Origin: Ostreococcus lucimarinus
Taxonomy: Eukaryota
Assembly: GCA_000092065.1 (NCBI GenBank)
Contig: CP000601.1
DNA: 64,000 nt
Direction: 5' to 3' (one strand)
Positions within the stretch are counted from its first letter, which is position 1. Each line of letters starts with the position of its first letter. Position numbers and translations under genes: made by a program. Shown piece by piece: positions 1 through 12,112 of this stretch. The notes beneath the pieces are model-generated. The model ran no database searches, was not told the DNA's origin, and worked only from the letters and a program-made list of their open reading frames with translations.

Positions 1-55
1 GTCTCGACGCGCGCGCGCGCCTCTCGCGCGCCCGCGAGCGGCGTCGCGCGCGCGC

Positions 56-3000
56 ATGGTCGAACTCACGATCGTCCCGTCGTGGGACGGTAAGGGCGTC
101 ACCTGGCGCCCGATATTCGACGACGACGAGGAGGCTTTCGCGGCGTACACGCACGCGTGCGAGTACGCGAAGAGCGGACGCGGGAAGTGCGGGAAGTGCG
201 GGGAAAAGGTGCGGCGAATCGACGAATCGACGCGAAGAGAAGAGAAAAAAGACTGACGACGAGGGGTTCGGATCGGCGACGAAGATCGCGAAGGACGCGG
301 TGCGAATCGGGGAACCGCTCAAGTATCGCGGCGGCGATTACGGATGGATATCGAAGTGGATGCATCCGGAGTGTTATCGCGCGGAGGGAGTCACGAGGGA
401 GGAGCTGGAGACGCGCGTGCACGGGTTGGACGCGCTGAAGGATGGGGATCGGGAGGTGTTGCTGGCGACGGTGCTGTCGCCGGATCGGCCGGAGATCGAG
501 AACACGGCGTTGGACGTGACGAGCGAGGAGTTTTTGCGTCGGCCGGCGGTGGAACCGATGGAGGCGCCGCGGGCGTTGACGCGGCCGTTGTTGGGGTTTC
601 AGCGCGAGGGGTTGCGGTGGATGTGCGATAACGAGAGCGGCGATGCGAAGGGGGGGATATTGGCGGATGAGATGGGGATGGGGAAGACGATACAGTGCAT
701 ATCGATGTTGCTGGCGAGGAAGGAGGCGTGGATGCGAGACCGCGCCGAGGTGGGGGAGATGGTGACGGACGACGACAGACCGCCGCCGACGCTCGTGGTG
801 GTGCCGACGTCGGCGCTCGTTCAGTGGGAAGAAGAGATCAAATCGTGCGTCGAGGAAGGGTCGCTGCGCGTGTTTGTGTATTACGCTGATCGCGCAAACG
901 TCGTGGAAGGAGACTTTAAAGGATACGACGTCGTGTTGACGACGTATCCCGTCGTCGAAGCCGAGTGGCGGAAAATCATCAACCGACACTTGACGGCGTG
1001 TCAGTGGTGTGGGAAAAAGTACTTACCTCGCTCCATGGTGACGCACTTGAAGTACTTCTGTGGACCAGACGCCGTGCGCACGGAAAAACTCGCGCGGCGC
1101 GAGGTGACGCGCGACGTGGCGAACGAAAAAGCCATGCGCACGCTGAAAATCAAGCCGGGCAGCGCCAAGGACGTGAAGAAGGGGATTCCCACGATGGCGA
1201 ACGTATACAAGGAACTCATGGCGATGGCCGGACGGGAGACGCTGAGCATGTATGATGGCGCGCACAAGGCGCGCGCACGCGCGGCTTCAGGTCTCGCCCC
1301 GGGCGGCGACGTCGTCGTCGTCAAGGAGGAAGTTGAAGACGGCGTCGCCGAGCCGAGCGAAGTTCTGAAAGCTTTGATTTCGCAGCTTCCAGTGCCGACG
1401 ATTGTAGTTGAGAATATCAAAGAGGAGTCGATTGAGGAGAAAGAAAAAGAGGTCGAGTCAGTGAACGAGCCCGCCTTGGCTGACGCGTCAACGGCGGCGA
1501 TAGCGAGTACGGTGAAGAAGGCGCAGAAGCGCAAGTCGAAGGCTTCGGGTAAAGCGACTTCGACTTCGAGCGCAAAGAAAAAGAAGAAGAGTCTGCGCGA
1601 AGCTAGCGACGGCGAGGCTGAAAGTGATTACAAACCGGACAGTGATAGCGAAGATGATGAGATCATATTAGTCGACGATAGCGAGAGCGAAGATAGAAAG
1701 CCAAAGAAGAAACAGAAGAAAAAGAAAACGCCGGCGAAAACCGAGGAAGCGGACGACGTGAAGGCGTCCAACATCGACGACATTCCGCAAACCTCGCAAG
1801 GTGGTTCGCAAGGTGGGAGCCAGTTTGAAGACGAAGACGACGTAGATTTGTCGGATTCCCTTCTTCATCGCACGCAGTGGCACCGAATCGTTCTCGACGA
1901 AGCGCACAAGATCAAGGCGCGCACGAGCAACACCGCCAAGTGTATCTACGCTTTGAAATCCACGTATAAGTGGTGTTTGACAGGTACACCGTTGCAGAAT
2001 CGAATCGGCGATCTTTACAGCTTGGTGAGATTTTTGCGTATGGATCCGTACGCGTTTTACTTTTGTTCGACGAAGGGTTGCGAGTGCAAAACGCTCACCT
2101 GGAACTTCGGTCCTCAGGCGCGATTTTGTACCAACTGCGGATGCGGCGCTCCTAGGCATTATTCGCATTTCAATCGCACCGTGCTAAACCCGATCAACCG
2201 TTATGGCTACATCGGTGACGGCAAGAAAGCGATGCTGACTCTTAGAAATGACATTTTGTTGCCGATGCAACTTCGCCGGACCAAGGCGGAACGCGCCGAG
2301 GACGTGCGACTGCCGGACTTGAAGATTATCATTCAAGAAAACACATTCAATGAGGTTGAACAAGACTTTTACGAGTCTCTGTACATGCTGACGCGCTCGA
2401 AGTTCGACGCGTTCGTGAAGAAAGGGAGCGTTTTGCACAACTACGCACACGTCTTCGAGCTCCTCGCACGACTGCGACAAGCGTGCGATCATCCGTACTT
2501 GGTGATTCATTCGAAGAGTGCGAACGTGAAAAAAGACGCCCCTGACGCGCCGAAAGTTGAATCCCCGGCAGACACCGACGTTCCGAAGCATTATTGTGGC
2601 ATGTGTCAGGACGAAATTGAGGAAGAAGACGCGGCTCTGGCGAATTGCAAACACATTTTCCATCGTGAGTGCATCATGCAATACGCGTCTTGTGCGCCTG
2701 CGGATGGCAAAAAAGTGACTTGTCCCGTCTGTCGCACGGCGTTGACGATTGACTTCTCTCCAGAAAGTCTCGAAAACGTCAAGAGTGCCATTAGTCGTAA
2801 TTTCAAGGATGCGCTACCAGACAAGTCAATTCTCAACAAGCTCGATCTCACGCAGTACACGTCGAGCACAAAGGTTGAGACGCTCGTTAACGCTCTGCGA
2901 GACATGCGTAATCAAGAAAATGGGCACTTAAACAAAGCCATCGTGTTTTCGCAGTACACAGCCATGATAGAAATCGTCGAATGGCGTTTGAAAAAGGCCA

Positions 3001-3392
3001 AGTTTACCATCGCCAAGCTTCTCGGTTCCATGCCGGTCACGCAACGCGCGGCGAATTTGCAAGCTTTCCGAGAAGATCCAAACGTCAGCGTGATCTTGAT
3101 GAGTCTCAAATCTGGCGGTGAAGGACTCAACTTGCAAGCGGCGAATTACGTATACGTTCTTGAGCCATGGTGGAACCCAGCGGTGGAAATGCAAGCCGTG
3201 ATGCGCGCACATCGCATCGGGCAGCTTCGACCGGTGACCGCTGTTCGATTTTCGACCAAAGGCACGATTGAAGAACGCATGATGGAGCTTCAAGAAAAGA
3301 AGCAGCTTGTGTTCGAAGGGTGTATGGACGGCAATCAAGCCGCGCTTTCTCAACTGACTGCCGAAGACTTGCAATTTTTGTTCAAGCGATGA
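56..3392 (+). CDS. SNF2-family DNA-dependent ATPase with C3HC4 RING finger (Rad16/Rad5 class), fused to an N-terminal PARP-type zinc finger. Predicted 2 exons, 56..208 and 294..3392. The gene may start upstream of the window, because frame 2 is open from base 2.
   Basis: Helicase motif I is GILADEMGMGKT, motif II is DEAHKIK and motif III is LTGTPLQN. A Cys cluster (CSTKGCECK...CTNCGCG) is inserted between the helicase lobes. The RING is CGMCQDE...CKHIFHRECI...CPVCRTAL. The C-terminal helicase lobe is LKSGGEGLNLQAANYVYVLEPWWNP...QAVMRAHRIGQ. The upstream ORF 56..256 encodes ACEYAKSGRGKCGKCGEK, the first half of a zf-PARP. Its second half (RIGEPLKYRGGDYGWISKWMHPECY) lies in the main ORF frame. 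Confidence 0.75.
209..293 (+). other. Predicted spliceosomal intron (85 nt, phase 0) joining the two halves of the zf-PARP
   Basis: Donor is AAG|GTGCGGCGA at 209. Branch is GACTGACGACGAGGG at 251-265. Acceptor is GCGAAG| at 292-293. Splicing gives CGKCGEK|DAVRIGEPLKY...WMHPEC, i.e. C-x2-C-x26-H-x2-C. The frame-2 stop TGA lies inside the branch motif. Confidence 0.55.
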
Positions 3393-3477
3393 CGATGATG
3401 TATGGTATAATGACAAATTTGACCTATGTAGCTAAAACGCTGTAACGCTGTGATGTGAGCACTTTCTGTCATGGCTC

Positions 3478-5973
3478 TTAAAAATCCTTGAAAATCTCGT
3501 TCGCACGATTCATAGACGCATCCGTCGGTCCTCTCGCCGAATCCATTTCAGTTGCGAGCAACGATTCCCGTTCGATCTCGATAAGACGTTCGCGCTGAAT
3601 TTCTAAAAACTGCCGCGAAAGCGTCAGCGGCTTGGGCGTGTACTCGCCACTCTCTAGCAGCGCCCAGTCAAACTTGGCGAACCAAGGGTGTCTCTTAATC
3701 TGACTGACCCCGCCTTGCATGTTTCCGAGCCTTTTCGCCGAGTTTCGCTGCAAGAGCTGAGAAATAAAATTGCACGCCTCGTCGGTGGCGTACGTGGGGT
3801 ATTGCACCTCGTACGACATGTCCACGATTCGCCGCATCACTTTCAATGGATCGTCTTTTTGGGACGGATCCTTTGATATCGTGAACGGCTGTTGTCCCGT
3901 TATTGTGACGTACGTCAAAACACCCAGCGCCCACCAATCGACGGCGTAGCCGTATCCCGTGGACAGCACAATTTCTGGCGCCACGTACCCAGGGGTGCCG
4001 CAAAACGTAAACGCGCGTTCGCCGACGTCAAGTTTCTTCGCGTAGCCAAAATCTCCGAGCTTACATTTGCCGTTGAGCGCAAGCAATACATTCTCTGGCT
4101 TCAAGTCGCGATAGATGATTTGGTTGCCGTGCAGATACTCGAACGCGAGAATAACCATGGCGGTGTAGTATCGCGCCGTGTCTTCGCTGATGCCAATCTG
4201 CGTGGGCACGTGGCGAATCTCACCATCGATTTGTGTCGGAATTAACTTCACTTGCACCGCGCTCGCAAGCATGTCCATCAAGTCACACCCATCCATGATG
4301 TCGAAAAGCATGTACAGATGATTCCTGTCTTGGAAACTGGCGTGCTGACACATCAACGAAAAGTGGCTGATTTCGCTCGTGACTTCCTTTTCGCAGAAAA
4401 TGTGCGACGGACTCTCCATCACGGCACGCTTACGCACGCGCTTGAGCGCGAAGGCGCGCGGTGACGACACATTCATACCTTCTTGAATAACGCGATACAC
4501 GTGCCCACCAGTGCCTCCACCGAGCATTTCCTTCTCCACTAAATCGATCGACCCCAACTCCCGATTGACGTCCGTGGCGAACGACCTCGGGTTTACTGAG
4601 CCGTACATGCTAATGTTCACCTTCTTTCCTCCCACGCGCGCGCTACCTAACAGGCGAATTCGGGCGGAGCGCCACGACTTTTCACCCTTGAGCTGCCGCA
4701 TGCGATTACGAATGACTTCTCGAGACTTTTCTCGAAGTAAATCTTCGCGCACGGATGACAGCTTCTCGAGGAACACGTCTCGATTGACGACGTAACACAC
4801 CAGAGGAGTTTCCACGCATCGCACGGTGTACTCTCGCGGTTCATCACCGCGAATGATCTCGGAAGCACCAAAAAAGTCGTGTCGAAACAAGTGATTCACC
4901 GTGCGCGGTTCACCCGTGTCCGGGTCGAGCTTGGAAACTTGCGCTCGCCCCGAATTGACGAGGTAAAATTTACCGTCGCACGCTTCGCCTTCGGTAATAA
5001 CGTCCGTGTACGGGTCGAACGAGACCGTCTCCAAGGCATCCGCGAACGACTTCCGCGTGTCGATCGGTAAAGCGCTGAGCACGGGAACTTGTTCGAGGAA
5101 TAAATTCTTCGCGAGCGTCGTCGCCTCGACGCTGTGCTTGACCTCCCTCTTGAAGACTTGTTGCGTGCACACCCAAACCTGCGACCGCGTCTTCGCCCGC
5201 ACCGTCGCCGAGCGCGGCACGCTATAAAGTAAAGCTAACTCGCCGATGATATCGCCTTTCGTGCGCGTGAGGACGCTGATATCGGCGCCGAGCCGATTTT
5301 GCAGCACGTCGAATTCGCCTCCGGCGATGAGATACAACGCGTCGCCCGGTTCGTCCTCCTCCATCAAAATCGTCCCCTCCGGCACGTTGATGAAGAACAT
5401 TTCGCTCGCCACGCGTCGCCTGACGTTCGCATCGAGCTCAGAAAACGTAAACGTCTGCGACAGCGCCTCGCACAGCGGTTCCAATTCGCTCTTCGTCGCT
5501 CTCCGTCGCTTCGCCAGCATCTTCGCGTTCAGCTTCACGAAATACGTCAGCTCCGCCGATCCCGCGTCGCCGACGAACTCATCGTCTCCTCCGTTCGCGT
5601 TCGCCGTCGCCTCTTCCCCCGACGCGAGCGATCCCTGACTCGCGCGCAGCGCGTAGTCGACGCTCTGCCGCCTCGCCTTCGCCTCGCCCGCCGACGCCGA
5701 CGCCGACGTCGACGCCGACGCCGTCGACGTCGCGCGCGCGCGCGTCCCGTCCGACGTCCGACCCGCGTCGGCGTCGCTCGCGCTCGTCGACCCATCGCTC
5801 GCGTCGCGTCGCGCGTCCTCGTCGTCCGACGCCGCGTCCCGCGCGCCGAAGCAGCATCCGACGCGCGCGCGCGCGCGCGCCGTCGGTCGCGCGCGTCCGC
5901 GCGCGCGCGCGTCCGACGACGAGTCCGTCGCGCGGCGCGATCGCATGCGCGCGGTGTCGACCTCGTCCGCCAT
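3478..5973 (-). CDS. cGMP-dependent protein kinase-like protein: two cyclic-nucleotide-binding domains plus an AGC Ser/Thr kinase domain. It has a long Ala/Ser/Arg/Asp-rich N-terminal region, so the true start is uncertain.
   Basis: The cNMP-binding motifs are GDALYLIAGGEFDV and FGELALLYSVPRSATVRA, with a second domain at FGASEII. Kinase motifs are YRDLKPENVLL, GDFGYAKK and GTPGYVAPE. An AGC C-terminal tail follows (HPWFAKFDWALL). Confidence 0.75.
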   Translation of the reverse strand: MADEVDTARMRSRRATDSSSDARARGRARPTARARARVGCCFGARDAASDDEDARRDASDGSTSASDADAGRTSDGTRARATSTASASTSASASAGEAKARRQSVDYALRASQGSLASGEEATANANGGDDEFVGDAGSAELTYFVKLNAKMLAKRRRATKSELEPLCEALSQTFTFSELDANVRRRVASEMFFINVPEGTILMEEDEPGDALYLIAGGEFDVLQNRLGADISVLTRTKGDIIGELALLYSVPRSATVRAKTRSQVWVCTQQVFKREVKHSVEATTLAKNLFLEQVPVLSALPIDTRKSFADALETVSFDPYTDVITEGEACDGKFYLVNSGRAQVSKLDPDTGEPRTVNHLFRHDFFGASEIIRGDEPREYTVRCVETPLVCYVVNRDVFLEKLSSVREDLLREKSREVIRNRMRQLKGEKSWRSARIRLLGSARVGGKKVNISMYGSVNPRSFATDVNRELGSIDLVEKEMLGGGTGGHVYRVIQEGMNVSSPRAFALKRVRKRAVMESPSHIFCEKEVTSEISHFSLMCQHASFQDRNHLYMLFDIMDGCDLMDMLASAVQVKLIPTQIDGEIRHVPTQIGISEDTARYYTAMVILAFEYLHGNQIIYRDLKPENVLLALNGKCKLGDFGYAKKLDVGERAFTFCGTPGYVAPEIVLSTGYGYAVDWWALGVLTYVTITGQQPFTISKDPSQKDDPLKVMRRIVDMSYEVQYPTYATDEACNFISQLLQRNSAKRLGNMQGGVSQIKRHPWFAKFDWALLESGEYTPKPLTLSRQFLEIQRERLIEIERESLLATEMDSARGPTDASMNRANEIFKDF

Positions 5974-6180
5974 CGCGCGCGCGCCGCGGGAAGTGCCGAC
6001 GGACGCGCGGCGTCACATCGCCGCGCCGACGCGCGCCGAGTCGCGCCGCGAGCGCGCCGCGCGTCGGAGCGACGCGCGCGCGACGCGCGCGCGTCGCGCG
6101 TCGACGCGCGTCCGCCGCGAGCGTCGAGCGACGCTCGGAAGCGACGCGAATTCGGGTTGGGATTCGGCGGCGGCGGTGCG

Positions 6181-9100
6181 ATGGCGATTCGACGCGCGTG
6201 CGGCGCGCCGCCGCGCGCGACGGGCGCCGCGCGCGCGCGCGGGACGCGGACGATGGTCGCGCGACGCGCGATCGTGCCGGACAGGGACGACGGCGCGCGC
6301 GCGCGGGATGAGACGCGAGGAGAGACGCGCGCGGGACGAGGGCGCGAGCGCGGCGCGAGCGAGGGCGAACGCGAACGCGAACGCGCGCGGAGGGAATACA
6401 GGGCGTACCGCGCGCGACGGACGGACGTCGGGATGGACGCGCGCGCGGGGGAAGGGACGTCGACGTCGTACGGGACGGATGGCGCGGACGCGGACGCGGA
6501 GGCGGCGGCGAGGCGGGGACACGCGGAGGCGCTGCGCGCCGGGGACGTCGACGGTGCGGTGAAGGCGCTGGCGACGCTGGCGAGGCGGGGGGAAGGGGAC
6601 GCGCGGATGACGCGCGCGGTGGTGTCGAAAGCGATGGCGAAATCGCTCGCGAAATCGCATAAGGGGTTCATGAAGCTGTGCGTGAAGACGTACAGGATGG
6701 ACGCGGCGCTGCGGTACGCGCGTCTCTTCGACGCGCGCGATCGCGATTTCGCGCGCGGGAAGGATTTGTATTGCACGGTGATTTATCTGTGCGGTCGCGA
6801 GGAGGGGTCGAATCAGTGGAACATCGCGCGAGAGGCGTTTGAGCTTCGACGAGACGAAGCGGGGTTGGAGCCGGATCCGTACGCGTACAGCGCGCTCGTG
6901 TGCGCGGCGGGACGGTGCGGAAAGGCTAGGACGGCGCGAGAGGTGTTCGAGGAAGCGAATGCGGTCAATGCGGTGGATACGGTGGTGTACAACGCGTACA
7001 TAGACGTGTGTGCGCACGGGGGTGATTACGACGGCGCGAGGGCGACGCTCGAGCGCATGAAGACGACGCCGAATTGCGCGCCGAATATTCGTTCGTACAA
7101 CGGCGTCATATCCGCGGCGACGCGCAAAAAGCACTTCCCGGGCGCGATGTGGGCTTGGGAAGAGATCGAGACGGCGAATTTACAGCCAACCATGATCACA
7201 TACGGCGCCATGCTCGCCGCGGGCGCGGCGGCGGACGACGTCGACGTGCGTTGGTCGGAGGACTTGTTCGCTCAAGCGTTGGAATCTGGCGCGTGTGGCA
7301 ACGCAGGGAACGATCACATGGTGACTTCTATGCTCCAGACGTATGCTCGCGGCGTCGCGCTCGAGCAAATCGAGCGTGATGTCGCGATGGAACGCGGAGA
7401 GAGCGTCGTGCAAGCGCTCATAGAGGACGCGCAGTGGGACGAACGGCGCGCCGAGTCAACGCCCAACGGACGCGTCTGGTCGGCGTTGATAACGCTTTGC
7501 GCTCGATGTGGGCGCGCCGCGCGCGCGATCGAAGTGCTCAAGATTATGATTTCTACTCGCTCGCATCGTGTGGGACACGAATGGTTGCACTTGACGTACG
7601 CCTTGACGTCCGCGCTCGAAGCGTCGAAGGAGGGCATCGAGTACTTTGCCCGCGTGCAGCGCGAAATCGAACAGAGCCCGGCGATGGTTCGAGACTGCAC
7701 GGGCGTTCGCAACGGCTTAATCGCCACACATTTGCACTTTGGTGATTTCAAGAGTGCGTTTAAAGTCTACGACGACTTCAAAAACGATATTTTCAAGTAC
7801 CGCAAGGCGCACGAAGAGAATTGGAACGCGCGCGCGCGGAGAGGGTTGGAACGTCAACTTCCAGATACGATTACGTACAACTCCCTCATCTACGCGTGCG
7901 CTGATGACGACGTCAAGGCCATGGGACTGTATCACGACATGGTCTCGAACGGAATCAATCCTACAGTGCGAACGTACGTCGCGCTCATCGTCGCCTTGAG
8001 CCGATCAAAGCGTGGAAGTAAAGTCACCGAGGCGGAAAAAATATTCAAAGCCGCCATCGACGACGGCGTGACGCCGAACGAGTTTTTGTTCACCGCGCTC
8101 ATGGACGCTCAGGTCAAAGGCAACCGGCCGTTATCTGCGTTTGAAACGTACGCGCGCATGATTGAAGCTGATGTCAACTGCACGACTGTGACTTTCGGGT
8201 GCGCACTGCAAGCGTGCTGTTACGTCGAGGATGTCGAGGAGAGCGTCGAGCGCGCGTACTCGGTGCTTCGTGATATGACGGAGCGTGACGTCCAGATGAA
8301 CGACTGGTGCTCTAACACGTTCTTGCGCGTCATATCACGCGCCGGTCGCATTGAAGAAATGCTCGAAGAAGTGAAAAAGACGGTTCGTCGTAAAGGCAAG
8401 CTCGAACAAGAGACGCTTGAAGCCATCATTCGGGCCTTGTGTTCGGCGGGTTACGTCGAGCGCGCCAATCGCTTCATCTCTATGATGAACTCGCGTAACT
8501 TGGAACCGCGTGAGCAAACGTTCAAGGAGTTCATCGTCGCGAGTAGTCGCGATGGATTCGTCGATTGGGCTTGGGAGTCGTACAAACGTTTCACACGTTT
8601 AGGACACAAACTCGACGCGGGCACGCGGTCGGCGCTAGTCACCGTCTTGAGCGTCGCTTCGACGAGCCCGGACCCCGACGATGCGGAACTCTTGCTCGCT
8701 CGCGCGATCGGCGTCTTCGAAGCCGCGTTTAAACGCGCGGATGAAGACAATGGGCCACAAGTCTTGGACGTCATCGACGCCGAAGCGCGATGCGCGCTCA
8801 TAGTCGCCATGGCGCGAAGCGAAAAACTTGACCGAGCATTGGATATCTGGCGCGACTCCCCAAAGGCTCAATCATTTTCCAAGGCGCGTAAGCACACTTC
8901 GAGTGAAGGGAACGATTACATCGGCGATGTGCGCGCCATGTATGAGTGCCTCATCGAAGTGTGCTGTCACGAAGATCGCATCGACGACGCGCTGGAGGTG
9001 TTCGATCACTTGAAGGACGCCGGCGTGCGCGTCAGTACGGTGACGCTCGCGTTTTTGGAATCATCGTGCCGCCGATGTCGCGTGGAGGAATGGCGAATGT

Positions 9101-9276
9101 TTGACGTGTGCGCACAAATGCGCGCGCAAGTGGAACAAAAAAACGAAGGTCGCCTGGCGAAGCCGACGAAGATGAGCCACCACGTGCGCGACGACGGCAA
9201 CATCGCGAGCGAACTCGCCACGGATGGACTGGGGGGCGAACAAAAGACGTCGGCGTGGCGCAAAAACGTCGATTGA
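6181..9276 (+). CDS. Pentatricopeptide-repeat (PPR) protein, probably organelle-targeted. The start is uncertain; in-frame Met codons lie at 6181, 6253 and 6433.
   Basis: Tandem ~35-aa PPR units are present, e.g. YSALVCAAGRCGKARTAREVFEEA, VVYNAYIDVCAHGGDYDGARATLERM, SYNGVISAATRKKHFPGAMWAWEEI, ITYGAMLAAG and TYNSLIYACADDD. The N-terminus is Arg/Ala-rich. The region before 6181 in the long ORF (from 5299) overlaps the kinase gene antisense and is low-complexity. Confidence 0.7.
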   Translation: MAIRRACGAPPRATGAARARGTRTMVARRAIVPDRDDGARARDETRGETRAGRGRERGASEGERERERARREYRAYRARRTDVGMDARAGEGTSTSYGTDGADADAEAAARRGHAEALRAGDVDGAVKALATLARRGEGDARMTRAVVSKAMAKSLAKSHKGFMKLCVKTYRMDAALRYARLFDARDRDFARGKDLYCTVIYLCGREEGSNQWNIAREAFELRRDEAGLEPDPYAYSALVCAAGRCGKARTAREVFEEANAVNAVDTVVYNAYIDVCAHGGDYDGARATLERMKTTPNCAPNIRSYNGVISAATRKKHFPGAMWAWEEIETANLQPTMITYGAMLAAGAAADDVDVRWSEDLFAQALESGACGNAGNDHMVTSMLQTYARGVALEQIERDVAMERGESVVQALIEDAQWDERRAESTPNGRVWSALITLCARCGRAARAIEVLKIMISTRSHRVGHEWLHLTYALTSALEASKEGIEYFARVQREIEQSPAMVRDCTGVRNGLIATHLHFGDFKSAFKVYDDFKNDIFKYRKAHEENWNARARRGLERQLPDTITYNSLIYACADDDVKAMGLYHDMVSNGINPTVRTYVALIVALSRSKRGSKVTEAEKIFKAAIDDGVTPNEFLFTALMDAQVKGNRPLSAFETYARMIEADVNCTTVTFGCALQACCYVEDVEESVERAYSVLRDMTERDVQMNDWCSNTFLRVISRAGRIEEMLEEVKKTVRRKGKLEQETLEAIIRALCSAGYVERANRFISMMNSRNLEPREQTFKEFIVASSRDGFVDWAWESYKRFTRLGHKLDAGTRSALVTVLSVASTSPDPDDAELLLARAIGVFEAAFKRADEDNGPQVLDVIDAEARCALIVAMARSEKLDRALDIWRDSPKAQSFSKARKHTSSEGNDYIGDVRAMYECLIEVCCHEDRIDDALEVFDHLKDAGVRVSTVTLAFLESSCRRCRVEEWRMFDVCAQMRAQVEQKNEGRLAKPTKMSHHVRDDGNIASELATDGLGGEQKTSAWRKNVD

Positions 9277-9380
9277 TACACTACATTTACAAGCACCGCA
9301 CGCCGCGCTGCATTTGCTACCACTACTACTGCATTGCTAATTTTTTTCTCTTGTACCAAATACATCGCAAGCACATTTCT

Positions 9381-10283
9381 TTACTCGTACGTCTGCGCGT
9401 ACTTTTCCTGCAAGTAATCGCCGAAGCGAATCGGCGCGTATTTCGCCGCCTCGCCGTCACCCACACACACCGGTTCAATCACGGCGTCGTAACTCGGCTC
9501 GAAGAAAAACGGTATCGAAAACCGTTCGCGCTCGCCCGTCGTCATCACGCGGTGTCGCGTGGAAGCGAACCGTCCGTTGGACCATCTCTCCAGCAAGTCC
9601 CCGACGTTCAACACGAAATGATCCGGAGGCGGCGTCACCGGCACCCACGTCTCTGTCTCTCGGTCGTAAATCTCCAACCCCGTCGAGCCGTCGTTCTCCA
9701 CCGCCAAAATCGTCAAGGCGCCGTAATCCGTGTGCGCGCCGCAGGCGAATTGGCCTTCGCCTTCGTCGCTCCTCGACGCCGAGTACTTTAAAAACCTCAG
9801 CACGCAATTATGCGACGACGCCGACCAATGCGCGTCAAAGTACGCGTCGTTCACGCCGCACGCGCGCGCCAACGCGGGCAACAGCCGTTTCCCGAGCGCG
9901 TACATCGATTCGTAATACGTCGTCGCCGCGTCTTCGAACGCCGCGCTGGGCCATCGATTCTTCGCGCGTTCCCGCACGACGTAAAACCCCTCCTTACTGT
10001 CGCCGACGCTCGAACTCGACGGGTCTAACTTTTCGGACGCGAACGCGGTGTACCCGATCCCCGGCGCGTCGCCCGTCAGCGCGCGCTTCCTCGTCTCGTC
10101 GCTCGAGTCGAAGAACGTCCTGCTCTCCGCGAAACACTTTCGAACGATCTCCGGCTCGGGCAGCGCGCCCTCGTGCGCGACGAACGCGAATCCGCGTCGA
10201 GCGAAATCGTCCGACGCGAACGCGTCCGTCAAACCGCGCGCGGAGCCGTCGCGCGCGAGATTGATGGTTGGAATGCGCGTCAT
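9381..10283 (-). CDS. 2-oxoglutarate/Fe(II)-dependent dioxygenase family protein
   Basis: HxD...H motif GAHTDYGALTIL, with WSNGRFASTRHRV and FSIPFFFEPSYDAV (2OG-FeII_Oxy fold). The ORF is compact at 300 aa. Confidence 0.75.
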   Translation of the reverse strand: MTRIPTINLARDGSARGLTDAFASDDFARRGFAFVAHEGALPEPEIVRKCFAESRTFFDSSDETRKRALTGDAPGIGYTAFASEKLDPSSSSVGDSKEGFYVVRERAKNRWPSAAFEDAATTYYESMYALGKRLLPALARACGVNDAYFDAHWSASSHNCVLRFLKYSASRSDEGEGQFACGAHTDYGALTILAVENDGSTGLEIYDRETETWVPVTPPPDHFVLNVGDLLERWSNGRFASTRHRVMTTGERERFSIPFFFEPSYDAVIEPVCVGDGEAAKYAPIRFGDYLQEKYAQTYE

Positions 10284-10339
10284 GAAGTGTCGTCACGTCG
10301 CGCGTCGCGTCGCCGCACACGCGCGCGCGGTCGCGGTCG

Positions 10340-12112
10340 ATGCGACGCGCGACGTCGCGCGCGGACGTCATGCGCAAGGCGTCGTCCGCGACGAGCGATC
10401 TCGCGATCGACGCGCTCGACGCGAGCCCGCAAAAGGCGTCGCACGCGCGCGGGTCATCTTTATCCTCCACGGGCAGTCTCTCGTCGAACGCGTCGGCGCC
10501 GGGCGCGTCGGCGCGGCGCGGTCGCCACCGCTTCCACCGGCCGTCGATGTTCTTCGCGCTGTGCGCGCTGGTGACGACGACGCTGGCGACGCTGACGCAC
10601 GAGGGGCGATCGGCGACGTGCGCGCGAACGCCGACGCACGTCGTCTTCGTCGACGCCGGGAGCACGGGGTGCCGCGCGCACGCGTTCGCGATAGAAAACG
10701 CGAGGAAAGCGAAAGGGAGAGGATCGTTGTTCGAGATGCGCACGCTCGGGACGAAGGAGAAGACGAGACTGCCGTTGGCGGAGATGGGAGGACGGGTGCG
10801 CGAGGAGTTGATGCCGGCGGTGCGCGCGGCGTTGGCGAAGATCCCGGATCGCGTCGAGCGCGCGCGAACGCCCGTGTACGTGTGGGCCACGGCTGGATTT
10901 CGCGTGTTGACGCCGGCGAAGCAACAAGCGCTGTGGCGCGAGGTGAGGGAGGCGGTGGAGGCTGAGACGGGGACGCGGCACGGGTACGGACATTTTCGAA
11001 CCGTCGACGGCGCCGAGGAAGGATTTTACGCGTGGCTGGCGGCGAATTACTTGTCAGACGTCGACGTCACCGCGGTCGGGCGATTAAACGACGCGAACAC
11101 GCCGGCGCCGGCGTTCGCGCGCGTTTCTGAGGACGATAATCCTTTGCTCAAGTCTGTCGGCGCGATTGACGTCGGCGGCGGGAGCGTGCAGTACGTGGCG
11201 CTGCCAAGGGAAGGCAAAGGCGCGTTCGTGAAGTCCATGCTCGAGTTGAGGAATGCGGTGAAAGTGGAGTCGTTTTTGGGGTACGGGGCGAACCACATGG
11301 AGACGAGATGGCGCGGCGCGCTGGCGGCGGCGAAGACGACGCGAAACGCGTGCGCGTTTCCGGGGCACGTCGTCACCGTGGACGGCGTGGAATTGACCGG
11401 AACCGGCGAATACCGCCAGTGCGTCGTGGGATTACGCAAACAAATCGCATCGATGCAGCGCGAACAAAAAGTGACGCTGCGCATGCCCGACGATTTCAAA
11501 CGCGTAGAGCGGTTTCTTGGCATGTCGCTGCTGTTTCATCTCACAAATTTCATCACCGTCGCCCTTCCGGGCGCGCTGCCATCCATGCCCAAGGCCACGC
11601 TTGCGGAAATTGCGACCGCCGGAGAAAAGCTGTGCGCCATCGAGTGGGCGAAGCTCGTGAAGGATGTCGATGGGAAGGATCCCAACACTCCCGCGGATCG
11701 CCTCAACGGACGTTGCTTCGACGCCGCGCTCGTGCAGGCGCTCCTCGGCGTAGACTTCGCGGAAGACGACATCGCCGCCGGCGAAGTCGGTCTCGGATTT
11801 TCACAAAACGACGAGCGTTTGAATTTCATCGAGCGCATCGACGACGCGGAGGTGGAGTGGACGCTCGGAGCGGCGATGAGCGTCGTGCACCCGACGGCGG
11901 CGCGCTCGAACTCGGCGTGGGCGAAGACGCGCGTACCGACGGAGTGCGCGCGCGTGCTTCACACGTCCTTTTTGAACGCTCTTTACGAGTGGGGCGTCAT
12001 CATCATGCCCGCGGCGCTCGTCGCTACCGGGTATTTATTGTACAAGACGCTCAGGATGACGGCGAACGTCGCCACGATGGCGCGTTCGCCCTCGTACCTC
12101 GAGGTACTCTAG
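10340..12112 (+). CDS. GDA1/CD39-family nucleoside tri/diphosphatase (apyrase/NTPDase) with N- and C-terminal transmembrane segments
   Basis: Apyrase conserved regions are VVFVDAGSTGCRAHAF (ACR1), VWATAGFRVL (ACR2) and IDVGGGSVQ (ACR4). Hydrophobic segments are FFALCALVTTTLATL and VIIMPAALVATGYLLY. Confidence 0.8.
   Translation: MRRATSRADVMRKASSATSDLAIDALDASPQKASHARGSSLSSTGSLSSNASAPGASARRGRHRFHRPSMFFALCALVTTTLATLTHEGRSATCARTPTHVVFVDAGSTGCRAHAFAIENARKAKGRGSLFEMRTLGTKEKTRLPLAEMGGRVREELMPAVRAALAKIPDRVERARTPVYVWATAGFRVLTPAKQQALWREVREAVEAETGTRHGYGHFRTVDGAEEGFYAWLAANYLSDVDVTAVGRLNDANTPAPAFARVSEDDNPLLKSVGAIDVGGGSVQYVALPREGKGAFVKSMLELRNAVKVESFLGYGANHMETRWRGALAAAKTTRNACAFPGHVVTVDGVELTGTGEYRQCVVGLRKQIASMQREQKVTLRMPDDFKRVERFLGMSLLFHLTNFITVALPGALPSMPKATLAEIATAGEKLCAIEWAKLVKDVDGKDPNTPADRLNGRCFDAALVQALLGVDFAEDDIAAGEVGLGFSQNDERLNFIERIDDAEVEWTLGAAMSVVHPTAARSNSAWAKTRVPTECARVLHTSFLNALYEWGVIIMPAALVATGYLLYKTLRMTANVATMARSPSYLEVL

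What the first reader, a model, noticed from the sequence alone, without database searches (positions are those of the whole stretch)
56..3392. Rad16/Rad5-class SNF2-RING ATPase carrying an N-terminal PARP-type (nick-sensing) zinc finger split by an intron
The zf-PARP halves (EYAKSGRGKCGKCGEK and RIGEPLKYRGGDYGWISKWMHPECY) sit in different frames and are joined only by the 85-nt intron. The resulting architecture is zf-PARP, then SNF2 lobe 1, an internal Cys cluster, a RING and SNF2 lobe 2. This would couple DNA-break recognition directly to a translocase and ubiquitin ligase. I do not recognise this domain combination as a standard one. The gene may also extend 5' of the window.
Basis: partly seen in the sequence, partly recalled or inferred. 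Interest (0 to 1): 0.65.

Follow-up and report, generated by a model that had tools for sequence, protein, structure and literature searches.

The report
Annotated algal RAD16 with PARP-type finger
This is the ordinary, already annotated RAD16 DNA-repair gene of the green alga Ostreococcus lucimarinus; its N-terminal PARP-type zinc finger, split by a small intron, is the usual form of RAD16 in many protists, not a new domain fusion.

Summary
The gene is real at 56..3392 (+). It has two exons and encodes 1086 aa: a PARP-type zinc finger, a split SNF2 ATPase with a RING between the lobes, and Helicase_C.

Two details of the finding are wrong. The intron is 76 nt (209..284), not 85 nt. The coding region does not extend 5' of the window.

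Three lines of evidence fix the junction:
- An intron-less Ostreococcus orthologue reads GAA AAG ATC GCC straight across it.
- A 91%-identical lineage keeps the AG|ATC acceptor.
- A conspecific contig carries a 22-nt, frame-breaking indel inside the intron.

The finger scores 56.4 bits against Pfam zf-PARP (cut-off 39.3). It keeps the CCHC ligands. An orthologue model (pLDDT 94) superposes on DNA-bound PARP1 Zn1/Zn2.

The architecture is not unusual. 93 of the 120 best homologues carry it; the named ones are green algae, kinetoplastids, apicomplexans, dinoflagellates, oomycetes and other stramenopiles, several called RAD16/rhp16. The exact spliced protein is already public as XP_001421157.1 (UniProt A4S6V0).

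What remains open is what the finger does in RAD16. Sensing of nicks or gaps during global-genome excision repair is inferred, not shown. I found no functional study.

The parts
56..208 (+). Exon 1 (codons 1-51): start Met, N-terminal beta-hairpin extension, and the first half of the zinc finger with C45 and C48
   Evidence: ORF and translation. All full-length orthologues start at the same Met. Compared with the intron-less orthologue, 14 codons differ synonymously and 9 non-synonymously, and 16 of 30 base differences are at third positions, as expected for coding sequence.
209..284 (+). Spliceosomal intron, 76 nt, phase 0: GTGCGG...CGAAG, with a CTGAC branch-point-like motif at 252-256
   Evidence: Absent from the intron-less orthologue L002, which reads GAA AAG ATC GCC across the site. 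The conspecific contig L001 has a 22-nt GA-rich insertion here (98 nt in total), which is not a multiple of 3. L003 keeps AG|ATC. The spliced product equals XP_001421157.1. There is no RNA evidence.
285..3392 (+). Exon 2 (codons 52-1086 plus TGA stop at 3390-3392)
   Evidence: Continuous ORF, collinear with orthologues to the C-terminal ...EDLQFLFKR.
65..112 (+). Predicted N-terminal beta-hairpin (residues 4-19, W17 nearly invariant); a RAD16-specific extension in front of the finger
   Evidence: Strands 4-8 and 15-19 in the AlphaFold model of the 82%-identical orthologue, pLDDT above 90. W17 is conserved in at least 90% of 37-38 diverse orthologues. The Pfam zf-PARP match starts only at residue 36.
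161..461 (+). PARP-type zinc finger (residues 36-110, spanning the intron). Zn ligands C45, C48, H78, C81; R58 aligned to the Arg of the LRM (Zn1) / VRL (Zn2) motif of PARP1
   Evidence: Pfam PF00645: 56.4 bits against a cut-off of 39.3. phmmer to PARP1 Zn1 and Zn2 (about 1e-7 each) and to the DNA ligase III finger 1uw0 (1.3e-6). The four ligands are invariant in 38 orthologues. The 28 best Foldseek PDB hits (27 at E<=0.001) are all PARP1 Zn1/Zn2 or ligase III finger, with TM up to 0.81.
600..977 (+). SNF2 ATPase lobe 1, first part (about residues 157-282), with motif I GILADEMGMGKT (K185 at nt 684-686)
   Evidence: Pfam SNF2-rel_dom (two stretches) and DEAD 180-277. G174-T186 are invariant in the 14-sequence alignment.
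999..1061 (+). Cys/His cluster A: C290-x2-C293-x11-H305-x4-C310 (CQWCGKKYLPRSMVTHLKYFCGP)
   Evidence: All four residues are invariant in 14 RAD16 homologues, including land-plant RAD16 P0114. Metal binding is inferred.
1119..1841 (+). Low-complexity acidic and basic insertion within lobe 1 (about residues 330-570), variable in length between lineages
   Evidence: Poorly aligned and gap-rich. Lys- and Ser/Asp/Glu-rich in translation. Much shorter in the plant and oomycete homologues.
1854..2501 (+). SNF2 lobe 1, second part (residues 575-790): motif II DEAH (1896-1907), motif III TGTPLQN, and the C-terminal part of the SNF2 N-domain
   Evidence: Best Pfam SNF2-rel_dom stretch is 575-790. D589, E590, A591, H592 and G618-R624 are invariant.
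2064..2159 (+). Cys/His cluster B: C645, C650, C652, C666, C669, (H671), H676 (FCSTKGCECKTLTWNFGPQARFCTNCGCGAPRHYSH)
   Evidence: Invariant in 14 RAD16 homologues including the land-plant one. Metal binding is inferred.
2595..2735 (+). RING finger (residues 822-868), inserted between the two ATPase lobes
   Evidence: Pfam zf-RING_2 at 31.1 bits (cut-off 27.3) and zf-C3HC4 at 24.7 bits (cut-off 21). C822, C825, C839, C847, C864, C867 are invariant.
2874..3221 (+). SNF2 lobe 2 / Helicase_C (residues 915-1030), with motif VI Q1021-A-x2-R1025-x-H-R-x-G-Q1031
   Evidence: Pfam Helicase_C E 1.1e-20. Invariant residues. PDB homologues: Rad5 6l8n at 1e-61 and other Snf2 ATPases.

Best explanation
Shown:
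- Window 56..3392 (+) is the two-exon RAD16 orthologue of Ostreococcus lucimarinus CCE9901 (XP_001421157.1 / UniProt A4S6V0).
- A 76-nt phase-0 intron (209..284) interrupts the codons of an N-terminal PARP-type CCHC zinc finger.
- Splicing gives a 1086-aa protein. It starts with a short conserved beta-hairpin and one PARP-like finger.
- The Snf2 ATPase follows. Its lobe 1 carries two family-wide Cys/His clusters and a low-complexity insert. A RING domain sits between the lobes, and lobe 2 ends the protein.
- The ATPase motifs, the RING ligands and the finger ligands are all intact, so the protein looks functional.

From established knowledge of yeast Rad7-Rad16:
- The ATPase is a DNA translocase that generates superhelical torsion needed to excise damaged DNA in global-genome nucleotide excision repair.
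- The RING contributes a cullin-type E3 ligase activity.

Inferred:
- By analogy with PARP1 Zn1/Zn2 and the DNA ligase III finger, the N-terminal finger binds DNA discontinuities: nicks, gaps, ends or single/double-strand junctions.
- It would use the conserved Arg (R58) and the hydrophobic loop residues Y70 and I73.
- This would anchor or recruit the translocase and E3 ligase at incised or broken DNA.
- This finger-bearing form is the common form of RAD16 outside fungi and land plants.
For: Gene model:
- ORFs and frames.
- The 76-nt splice gives the best zf-PARP score, 56.4 against 40.5 bits.
- The intron-less orthologue is contiguous across the junction.
- The acceptor is conserved in L003.
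- A 22-nt indel sits inside the intron of a conspecific contig.
- The spliced product is identical to the RefSeq protein.

Finger:
- Pfam score above the cut-off.
- Alignment to PARP1 Zn1, Zn2 and the ligase III finger, with C45/C48/H78/C81, R58 and Y70/I73 in register.
- The four ligands are invariant in 38 orthologues.
- The AlphaFold model of the 82%-identical orthologue has pLDDT 94 and pTM 0.83.
- Its 28 best PDB fold matches (27 at E<=0.001) are all PARP-type fingers, mostly DNA-bound.

RAD16 identity:
- The best named homologues are called RAD16 or rhp16; plant RAD16 scores 1.8e-182.
- Members of its own cluster are named 'DNA repair protein RAD16'.
- Rad5 in the PDB scores only 1e-61.
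- No HIRAN, PHD or H15 domain was found.
- The Cys clusters are shared with plant RAD16.

Breadth of the architecture:
- 93 of 120 homologues carry PF00645.

Yeast mechanism:
- PMC3472735 and PMC10454142.
Against: - No RNA evidence for splicing was available here.
- DNA binding by the finger, and its preference for nicks, is untested in any RAD16 I could find in the searchable literature.
- In the HMMER alignment, the position aligned to PARP1 Zn1 F44 is Gly (G68); the numbering F44 is from memory. The match of the base-stacking loop is therefore to Zn2-type positions only.
- Yeast, Arabidopsis and other land-plant RAD16 work without this finger, so it is not essential to RAD16 chemistry.
- The structure model is of an orthologue, not the window protein.
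Confidence: 0.85

Rival explanations
1. The finger is real, but it is not a nick sensor. It might act as a regulatory or protein-contact module, bind intact or UV-distorted DNA or chromatin, or merely add general DNA affinity. The ligase III finger, for comparison, is dispensable for core catalysis.
For: The residue aligned to PARP1 Zn1 F44 is Gly. A RAD16-specific beta-hairpin with a nearly invariant Trp packs in front of the finger, so the module differs from PARP1 and ligase III. The T. brucei orthologue turned up in a differentiation (quorum-sensing) RNAi screen, not a repair screen (PMC4403954).
Against: The Arg and the hydrophobic loop positions that align with DNA-contacting parts of PARP1 Zn2 are retained. 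The best fold matches are DNA-bound PARP1 fingers. All characterised members of this fold that I know of bind DNA discontinuities (my own knowledge).
Confidence: 0.3
2. Both acceptors (284|285 and 293|294) are used. Alternative splicing would then give isoforms with and without the three residues I-A-K of the finger.
For: Both are in-frame AG acceptors 9 nt apart, and both products pass the Pfam cut-off (56.4 and 40.5 bits).
Against: The intron-less orthologue, O. tauri and Micromonas all encode I-A-K here. In the 91% lineage the distal AG is out of frame. K54, the K of I-A-K, is nearly invariant.
Confidence: 0.08
3. Exon 1 is not part of the mRNA's coding region. The 76-nt segment would be a disrupting insertion, and the protein would start downstream and lack a complete finger.
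For: Prokaryote-style gene calls on metagenome contigs start inside or after the intron (P0001, P0002). No RNA data are available.
Against: The segment has exact GT..AG ends at the codon boundary of the intron-less orthologue and a branch-point-like CTGAC. Exon 1 shows coding-type substitution and an 82%-conserved protein sequence. No ATG lies in frame near the start of exon 2 (the long ORF's first start is GTG 300). The RefSeq model uses the splice.
Confidence: 0.03
4. The protein is a RAD5/HLTF- or SHPRH-type enzyme (post-replication repair), not RAD16.
For: The closest solved structure is Rad5 (6l8n). All three groups share a RING between the Snf2 lobes.
Against: No HIRAN, PHD or H15 domain. 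Rad5 scores 1e-61, against 1e-180 to 1e-210 for proteins named RAD16/rhp16. Two Cys/His clusters are shared with land-plant RAD16. No RAD16 structure appeared among the PDB matches, which explains why Rad5 is the top hit.
Confidence: 0.04

Closest known systems
RAD16 / rhp16 (Snf2 family, Rad5/16-like group), the ATPase-E3 subunit of the yeast Rad7-Rad16 global-genome NER complex
   Same: Split Snf2 ATPase with intact motifs I, II, III and VI, a RING between the lobes, and Helicase_C. The best named homologues are RAD16/rhp16, and two internal Cys/His clusters are shared with plant RAD16.
   Different: It carries an N-terminal beta-hairpin plus a PARP-type zinc finger, which the land-plant RAD16 hits lack. 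The published Pfam domain diagrams of yeast and Arabidopsis RAD16 also do not show it (PMC10454142). It has a long acidic and basic insert in lobe 1.
Finger-bearing RAD16 orthologues of other protists (O. tauri, Micromonas commoda, Chloropicon primus, Leishmania/Trypanosoma incl. Tb927.11.750, Plasmodium 'rhp16', oomycetes, Nannochloropsis)
   Same: Same full architecture, same roughly 125-aa spacing from finger to motif I, and the same N-terminal Trp motif. The domains of the T. brucei protein are listed in PMC4403954.
   Different: Only species-level differences. Here the finger is split by a lineage-specific 76-nt intron. Other Ostreococcus lineages have none. Micromonas has a different intron 13 nt upstream.
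PARP1 zinc fingers Zn1/Zn2 and the DNA ligase III N-terminal zinc finger (Pfam PF00645)
   Same: CCHC ligands with matching spacing, a conserved Arg and hydrophobic loop residues in register, and the same fold with TM up to 0.81 to DNA-bound structures.
   Different: There is a single finger, as in ligase III, not the PARP1 pair. It is preceded by an extra beta-hairpin. It is attached to a translocase and E3 ligase rather than to an ADP-ribosyl transferase or a ligase. DNA binding is untested.
RAD5 / HLTF
   Same: Snf2 ATPase with an embedded RING. Rad5 is the closest solved structure (6l8n).
   Different: There is no HIRAN domain, and sequence similarity is far weaker than to RAD16 homologues.

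Membership tests
zf-PARP (Pfam PF00645) | Profile score above Pfam's gathering threshold | tested here: met
   56.4 bits (E 5e-15) against a cut-off of 39.3 with the 76-nt splice; 40.5 bits with the 85-nt splice.
zf-PARP (Pfam PF00645) | C-x2-C ... H-x2-C zinc ligands | tested here: met
   C45, C48, H78 and C81 align with the ligand positions of PARP1 Zn1 and Zn2. They are invariant in 38 orthologues.
zf-PARP (Pfam PF00645) | PARP-finger fold | tested here: met
   AlphaFold model of the 82%-identical orthologue N-terminus, pLDDT 94. The 28 best Foldseek PDB hits (27 at E<=0.001) are all PARP1 Zn1/Zn2 or ligase III finger. The model is of an orthologue, not the window protein itself.
zf-PARP (Pfam PF00645) | Binding to nicks, gaps or DNA ends | not testable with these tools
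   Only conservation of R58 and of Y70/I73 at aligned contact positions. This needs biochemistry.
Snf2-family ATPase | Helicase-like motifs I (GxGKT), II (DEAH), III (TGTPLQN) and VI (QxxxRxHRxGQ) in two RecA-like lobes | tested here: met
   Pfam SNF2-rel_dom E 2e-57 and Helicase_C E 1e-20. The motif residues are invariant. ATPase activity was not tested.
Rad5/16-like group of Snf2 proteins | RING finger inserted between ATPase lobe 1 and lobe 2 | tested here: met
   RING 822-868 lies between SNF2-rel_dom (ends at 790) and Helicase_C (starts at 915).
RAD16 subfamily | Closest similarity to RAD16/rhp16 rather than to RAD5/HLTF or SHPRH | tested here: met
   Named hits are RAD16/rhp16 at 1e-180 to 1e-210, including plant RAD16 P0114. 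Cluster members are named RAD16. Rad5 scores 1e-61. No formal tree with reference sequences was made.
RAD16 subfamily | Complex with a Rad7-type partner and a role in global-genome NER | not testable with these tools
   No interaction or phenotype data.
RAD5/HLTF | N-terminal HIRAN domain | tested here: not met
   No HIRAN match in the Pfam scan at E up to 1.
SHPRH | Linker-histone H15 and PHD domains within the ATPase | tested here: not met
   No such matches in the Pfam scan.
Spliceosomal (U2-type GT-AG) intron | GT..AG ends whose removal restores the reading frame and the orthologous codons | tested here: met
   GTGCGG...GAAG at 209..284. The intron-less orthologue is contiguous at exactly this point. 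The acceptor is conserved in L003. A frame-breaking 22-nt indel is tolerated in L001.
Spliceosomal (U2-type GT-AG) intron | Removal from the mRNA | not tested
   No transcript data were reachable for this species. The RefSeq model is a prediction.

The most novel reading that the evidence does not exclude
The beta-hairpin plus PARP-type finger may be the ancestral N-terminus of eukaryotic RAD16, lost in fungi and land plants. It may direct the GG-NER translocase and E3 ligase to nicks or gaps, for example the incised intermediate. That would give a physical basis for the long-discussed post-incision and excision role of Rad7-Rad16. It would also give lineages that may have few other PARP-type fingers a break sensor independent of PARP. 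The module's presence in green algae, Euglenozoa, alveolates and stramenopiles, with the same spacing and the same Trp motif, fits a single early origin. Neither ancestry nor nick binding was tested.
Probability: 0.35. Interest if true: 0.5.

Novelty: already known. Interest (0 to 1): 0.2.

Why it matters
For genome annotation it matters little. The gene model and its domains are already public, and the architecture is common.

Two points have some residual value:
- Nobody appears to have asked what a PARP-type finger does on RAD16. Model-organism RAD16 (yeast, Arabidopsis) lacks it, so the field's picture of Rad7-Rad16 may describe a reduced form.
- The locus is a clean small example of intron gain or loss within a genus. 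One Ostreococcus lineage has no intron; two have an intron at the same site, with unrelated sequence apart from the branch-point-like GACTGACGACGA stretch. Micromonas has a different intron 13 nt away in the same finger.

Tried and rejected
- The 85-nt intron (acceptor 293|294) is rejected. It has a lower zf-PARP score, it deletes the conserved I-A-K, and it is out of frame in L003.
- The 55-nt option (acceptor 263|264) is rejected. It inserts seven residues (GFGSATK) absent from all orthologues, and its AG lies only about 7 nt after the branch-like A.
- A 5' extension of the gene is rejected.
- Searching the word-indexed protein database with the N-terminal 137 aa alone returned only near-identical fragments. 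It added nothing on distribution.
An 82%-identical orthologue was modelled instead.
- The exhaustive profile search with the N-terminal module found 4039 representatives. Its top ranks are dominated by multi-finger proteins, and it carries no taxonomy. Name look-ups added only a euglenid, Flectonema.
- Is the intron a repeated 'introner'-like element? There is no other copy in the window.
- Literature searches for RAD16/rhp16 together with PARP-type finger terms found no functional study. They found only domain listings.
Full report
**What is in the sequence**

The + strand carries an ATG at 56, followed by 51 codons that end ...EYAKSGRGKCGKCGEK at nt 208. That frame then stops at TGA 254-256. 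A second frame is open from before nt 285 to a TGA at 3390-3392. Only removal of a GT..AG segment starting at GT 209 joins the two frames.

Several in-frame acceptors exist, giving introns of 31, 34, 43, 55, 76, 85 and 115 nt.

**Which splice is right**

Four independent observations point to acceptor 284|285, a 76-nt intron.

- The Pfam zf-PARP score is 56.4 bits with the 76-nt intron, 48.7 with 55 nt and 40.5 with 85 nt. The gathering cut-off is 39.3.
- A related Ostreococcus lineage (P0004, 81% identical, locus L002) encodes the whole protein in one uninterrupted ORF. Aligned to the window, it reads ...GGT GAA AAG ATC GCC AAG GAT... across the exact point where the window has GAA AAG | GTGCGG...CGAAG | ATC GCG AAG GAC.
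- A 91%-identical lineage (P0002, L003) also has an intron here. Its sequence is different: a GACTGAC motif, a (GAC)n run, then GGGAAATAG|ATCGCGAAAGAC. The AG|ATC acceptor is conserved there, and the 85-type AG falls out of frame.
- The 76-nt product is, residue for residue, XP_001421157.1 / ABO99450.1 / UniProt A4S6V0, 'predicted protein [Ostreococcus lucimarinus CCE9901]'. This also identifies the source of the window.

Further support that 209..284 is non-coding comes from a conspecific metagenome contig (L001), which is identical in the aligned coding flanks. It has a 22-nt GA-rich insertion inside the segment, making it 98 nt, which would break any reading frame. A CTGAC branch-point-like motif lies 29 nt upstream of the acceptor.

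Exon 1 behaves as coding sequence. Against L002 it shows 14 synonymous and 9 non-synonymous codon differences, and 16 of 30 base differences are at third positions. I had no RNA data, so splicing itself is inferred.

**The 5' end**

The exon-1 frame is open to the first base of the window. However, every full-length orthologue starts at the equivalent Met: MPDLTVVPSWDGK..., MAQLTVVP..., MALLTVVD..., and Micromonas MPSALTIVEFEGK.... On contig L001 the next called upstream gene ends 114 nt before window base 1. The coding region therefore does not run off the window.

**Domains**

| Feature | Residues | Evidence |
|---|---|---|
| zf-PARP | 36-110 | Pfam, |
| SNF2-rel_dom | two stretches, best 575-790 | E 2e-57, |
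| RING | 822-868 | zf-RING_2 31.1 bits, cut-off 27.3; |
| Helicase_C | 915-1030 | E 1e-20, |

No HIRAN, PHD or H15 domain was found.

A 14-sequence alignment spans green algae, a land plant, kinetoplastids, apicomplexans, oomycetes, other stramenopiles and a dinoflagellate. The following are invariant in it:
- motif I, GILADEMGMGKT;
- motif II, DEAH 589-592;
- TGTPLQN;
- motif VI, Q1021..R1025.HR.GQ1031;
- the RING cysteines.

Two further Cys/His clusters are also invariant, including in land-plant RAD16. They are C290-x2-C293-x11-H305-x4-C310, and C645/C650/C652/C666/C669/H676. A low-complexity acidic and basic insert (about residues 330-570) is lineage-variable.

**Is the finger a true PARP-type finger?**

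By sequence, the N-terminal 137 aa match the human PARP1 F1F2 fragment at 1e-16 (2n8a, two matched stretches). They match Zn1-only and Zn2-only PDB chains at about 1e-7, and the DNA ligase III finger (1uw0) at 1.3e-6.

In those alignments C45, C48, H78 and C81 sit on the zinc ligands. R58 aligns with the Arg of the LRM (Zn1) and VRL (Zn2) motifs. Y70-G71 and I73 align with L-G and I of the Zn2 loop QLGMIDRW. Calling these residues the 'backbone grip' and 'base-stacking loop' rests on my memory of the PARP1 literature, not on a tool result. The position aligned to Zn1 F44 is Gly.

The four ligands are invariant in 38 diverse orthologues. W17, K54, G60, P62, G71 and W76 are at least 90% conserved.

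I therefore modelled the 82%-identical O. tauri-type N-terminus with a 37-sequence alignment. The model has pLDDT 94.0 and pTM 0.83. It contains a beta-hairpin (residues 4-19), then the finger strands, then helices. The 28 best Foldseek PDB matches (27 at E<=0.001) are all PARP1 Zn1/Zn2 or the ligase III finger, mostly DNA-bound structures. Target-normalised TM reaches 0.81. The hairpin with W17 is an addition specific to these RAD16 proteins.

**Which Snf2 subfamily?**

- The best named homologues are 'DNA repair protein RAD16' or 'rhp16'. They include a land-plant RAD16 at 1.8e-182.
- Members of the protein's own 90% cluster are named RAD16 by JGI.
- The closest solved structure is Rad5 (6l8n) at only 1.3e-61, and no RAD16 structure was among the PDB matches.
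- The missing HIRAN, H15 and PHD domains argue against RAD5/HLTF and SHPRH.
- I did not build a reference phylogeny.

**Is the combination unusual?**

No. Of the 120 best homologues, 93 carry PF00645 together with SNF2, RING and Helicase_C. An independent pattern scan also found a C-x2-C...H-x2-C finger upstream of motif I in 93 proteins, with broadly similar finger-to-motif-I spacing.

Named carriers include:
- green algae: O. tauri, Micromonas commoda, Chloropicon primus;
- kinetoplastids: Leishmania, Leptomonas, Novymonas, Phytomonas, Trypanosoma, Perkinsela;
- apicomplexans: Plasmodium species, Cryptosporidium felis, Eimeria;
- other alveolates: Perkinsus and the dinoflagellate Durusdinium;
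- oomycetes: Phytophthora, Peronospora, Plasmopara, Aphanomyces;
- other stramenopiles: Nannochloropsis and Aureococcus;
- a euglenid, Flectonema, added by a later look-up.

Most Micromonas-like hits that seem to lack the finger are prokaryote-style gene calls beginning inside the second half of the finger (VGVPIKWRGGEYGWISSWQHP...). They are cut short by an intron. The land-plant RAD16 hits genuinely lack the finger. Published Pfam diagrams of yeast and Arabidopsis RAD16 show only SNF2, RING and Helicase_C (PMC10454142).

In the literature I could search, the architecture appears only in domain listings:
- T. brucei Tb927.11.750, with 'Helicase, RING-finger, zf-PARP' (PMC4403954);
- T. cruzi RING E3 ligases (PMC5976635);
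- Toxoplasma Snf2 ATPases (PMC12215852).

No paper addressed the function of the finger in RAD16.

**How it most likely works**

- Shown: the protein has intact ATPase, RING and finger determinants.
- From established yeast work: the Rad16 ATPase is a DNA translocase. It generates superhelical torsion needed to excise damage in global-genome NER, and it does not slide nucleosomes. The RING contributes E3 ligase activity (PMC3472735; PMC10454142).
- Inferred: the N-terminal finger binds a DNA discontinuity and positions the translocase and E3 ligase there. Candidate sites are the incised NER intermediate or single-strand breaks and gaps.
- The main rival is that the finger has a regulatory or general DNA- or chromatin-binding role rather than nick specificity. 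I put that at about 0.3.

**Verdict**

It needs two corrections: the intron is 76 nt, and there is no 5' extension. The classification as a Rad5/16-class ATPase with a PARP-type finger is right.

The suggestion of an unusual fusion is not. This is the annotated O. lucimarinus RAD16 orthologue, and its architecture is the common one in many eukaryotic lineages. I rate novelty as already known and interest as low (0.2). The residual interest is the unstudied role of the finger.

Noticed in passing
window 209..284; L002 about 6150; L003 1..125; L001 6023..6120: The intron in the finger varies within the genus. One Ostreococcus lineage (81% identical protein) has no intron. A 91% lineage has a longer intron (over 120 nt) at the same site with a (GAC)n run. 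A conspecific contig has a 22-nt GA-rich insertion. This looks like recent intron gain or loss plus microsatellite-like length variation.
   Followed up: yes
L004 1501..1830 (Micromonas-like contig): Micromonas has a different intron in the same zinc finger. It is 102 nt, phase 2, inside the Lys codon before the second Cys (AA|GTGCGC...CGCAG|G TGC), 13 nt upstream of the Ostreococcus site. Because its length is a multiple of 3 with no stop, metagenome gene calls read through it (P0012, P0015).
   Followed up: partly
window 1..12000: G+C falls from the 5' to the 3' end of genes. It drops from 0.65-0.66 to 0.48-0.50 along RAD16. It reaches 0.79-0.80 at 5601-6400, where two divergent genes start, and is about 0.50-0.55 at their 3' ends.
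   Followed up: no
window 3478..5973 (-): The convergent neighbour is an 831-aa protein with cNMP-binding and protein kinase domains (PKG-like; Pfam hits on the matching 831-aa gene called in L001). Only 85 nt separate the two stop codons. Gene order around RAD16 (FSAF1, zf-4CXXC_R1, two unknowns, RAD16, kinase, PPR) is the same in L001 and L002.
   Followed up: no
P0160 (metagenomic protein, 1376 aa): The profile of the RAD16 N-terminal module matched 11 separate stretches in one 1376-aa protein (E 2e-164). This looks like an array of about 11 PARP-type fingers. Others in the list have 3-5 stretches. Their nature and source organism are unknown.
   Followed up: no
Literature: PMC4403954: The T. 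brucei protein with the same architecture (Tb927.11.750, 'Hyp 9') is listed among hits of a screen for components of the stumpy-formation (quorum-sensing) pathway. That is an unexpected phenotype for a RAD16-type repair protein.
   Followed up: no
P0001, P0002, P0013-P0026: Public metagenome gene calls for this gene family are often mis-started or truncated at the finger, because prokaryote-style callers ignore the intron. Precomputed Pfam lists therefore under-report zf-PARP in Mamiellales RAD16.
   Followed up: partly
P0052 (KAH9259092.1, Batrachochytrium salamandrivorans BASA81_002712): A finger-bearing RAD16-like protein is deposited under a chytrid fungus. If it is genuine and not contamination, the finger persists in early-diverging fungi. 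I could not check this.
   Followed up: no
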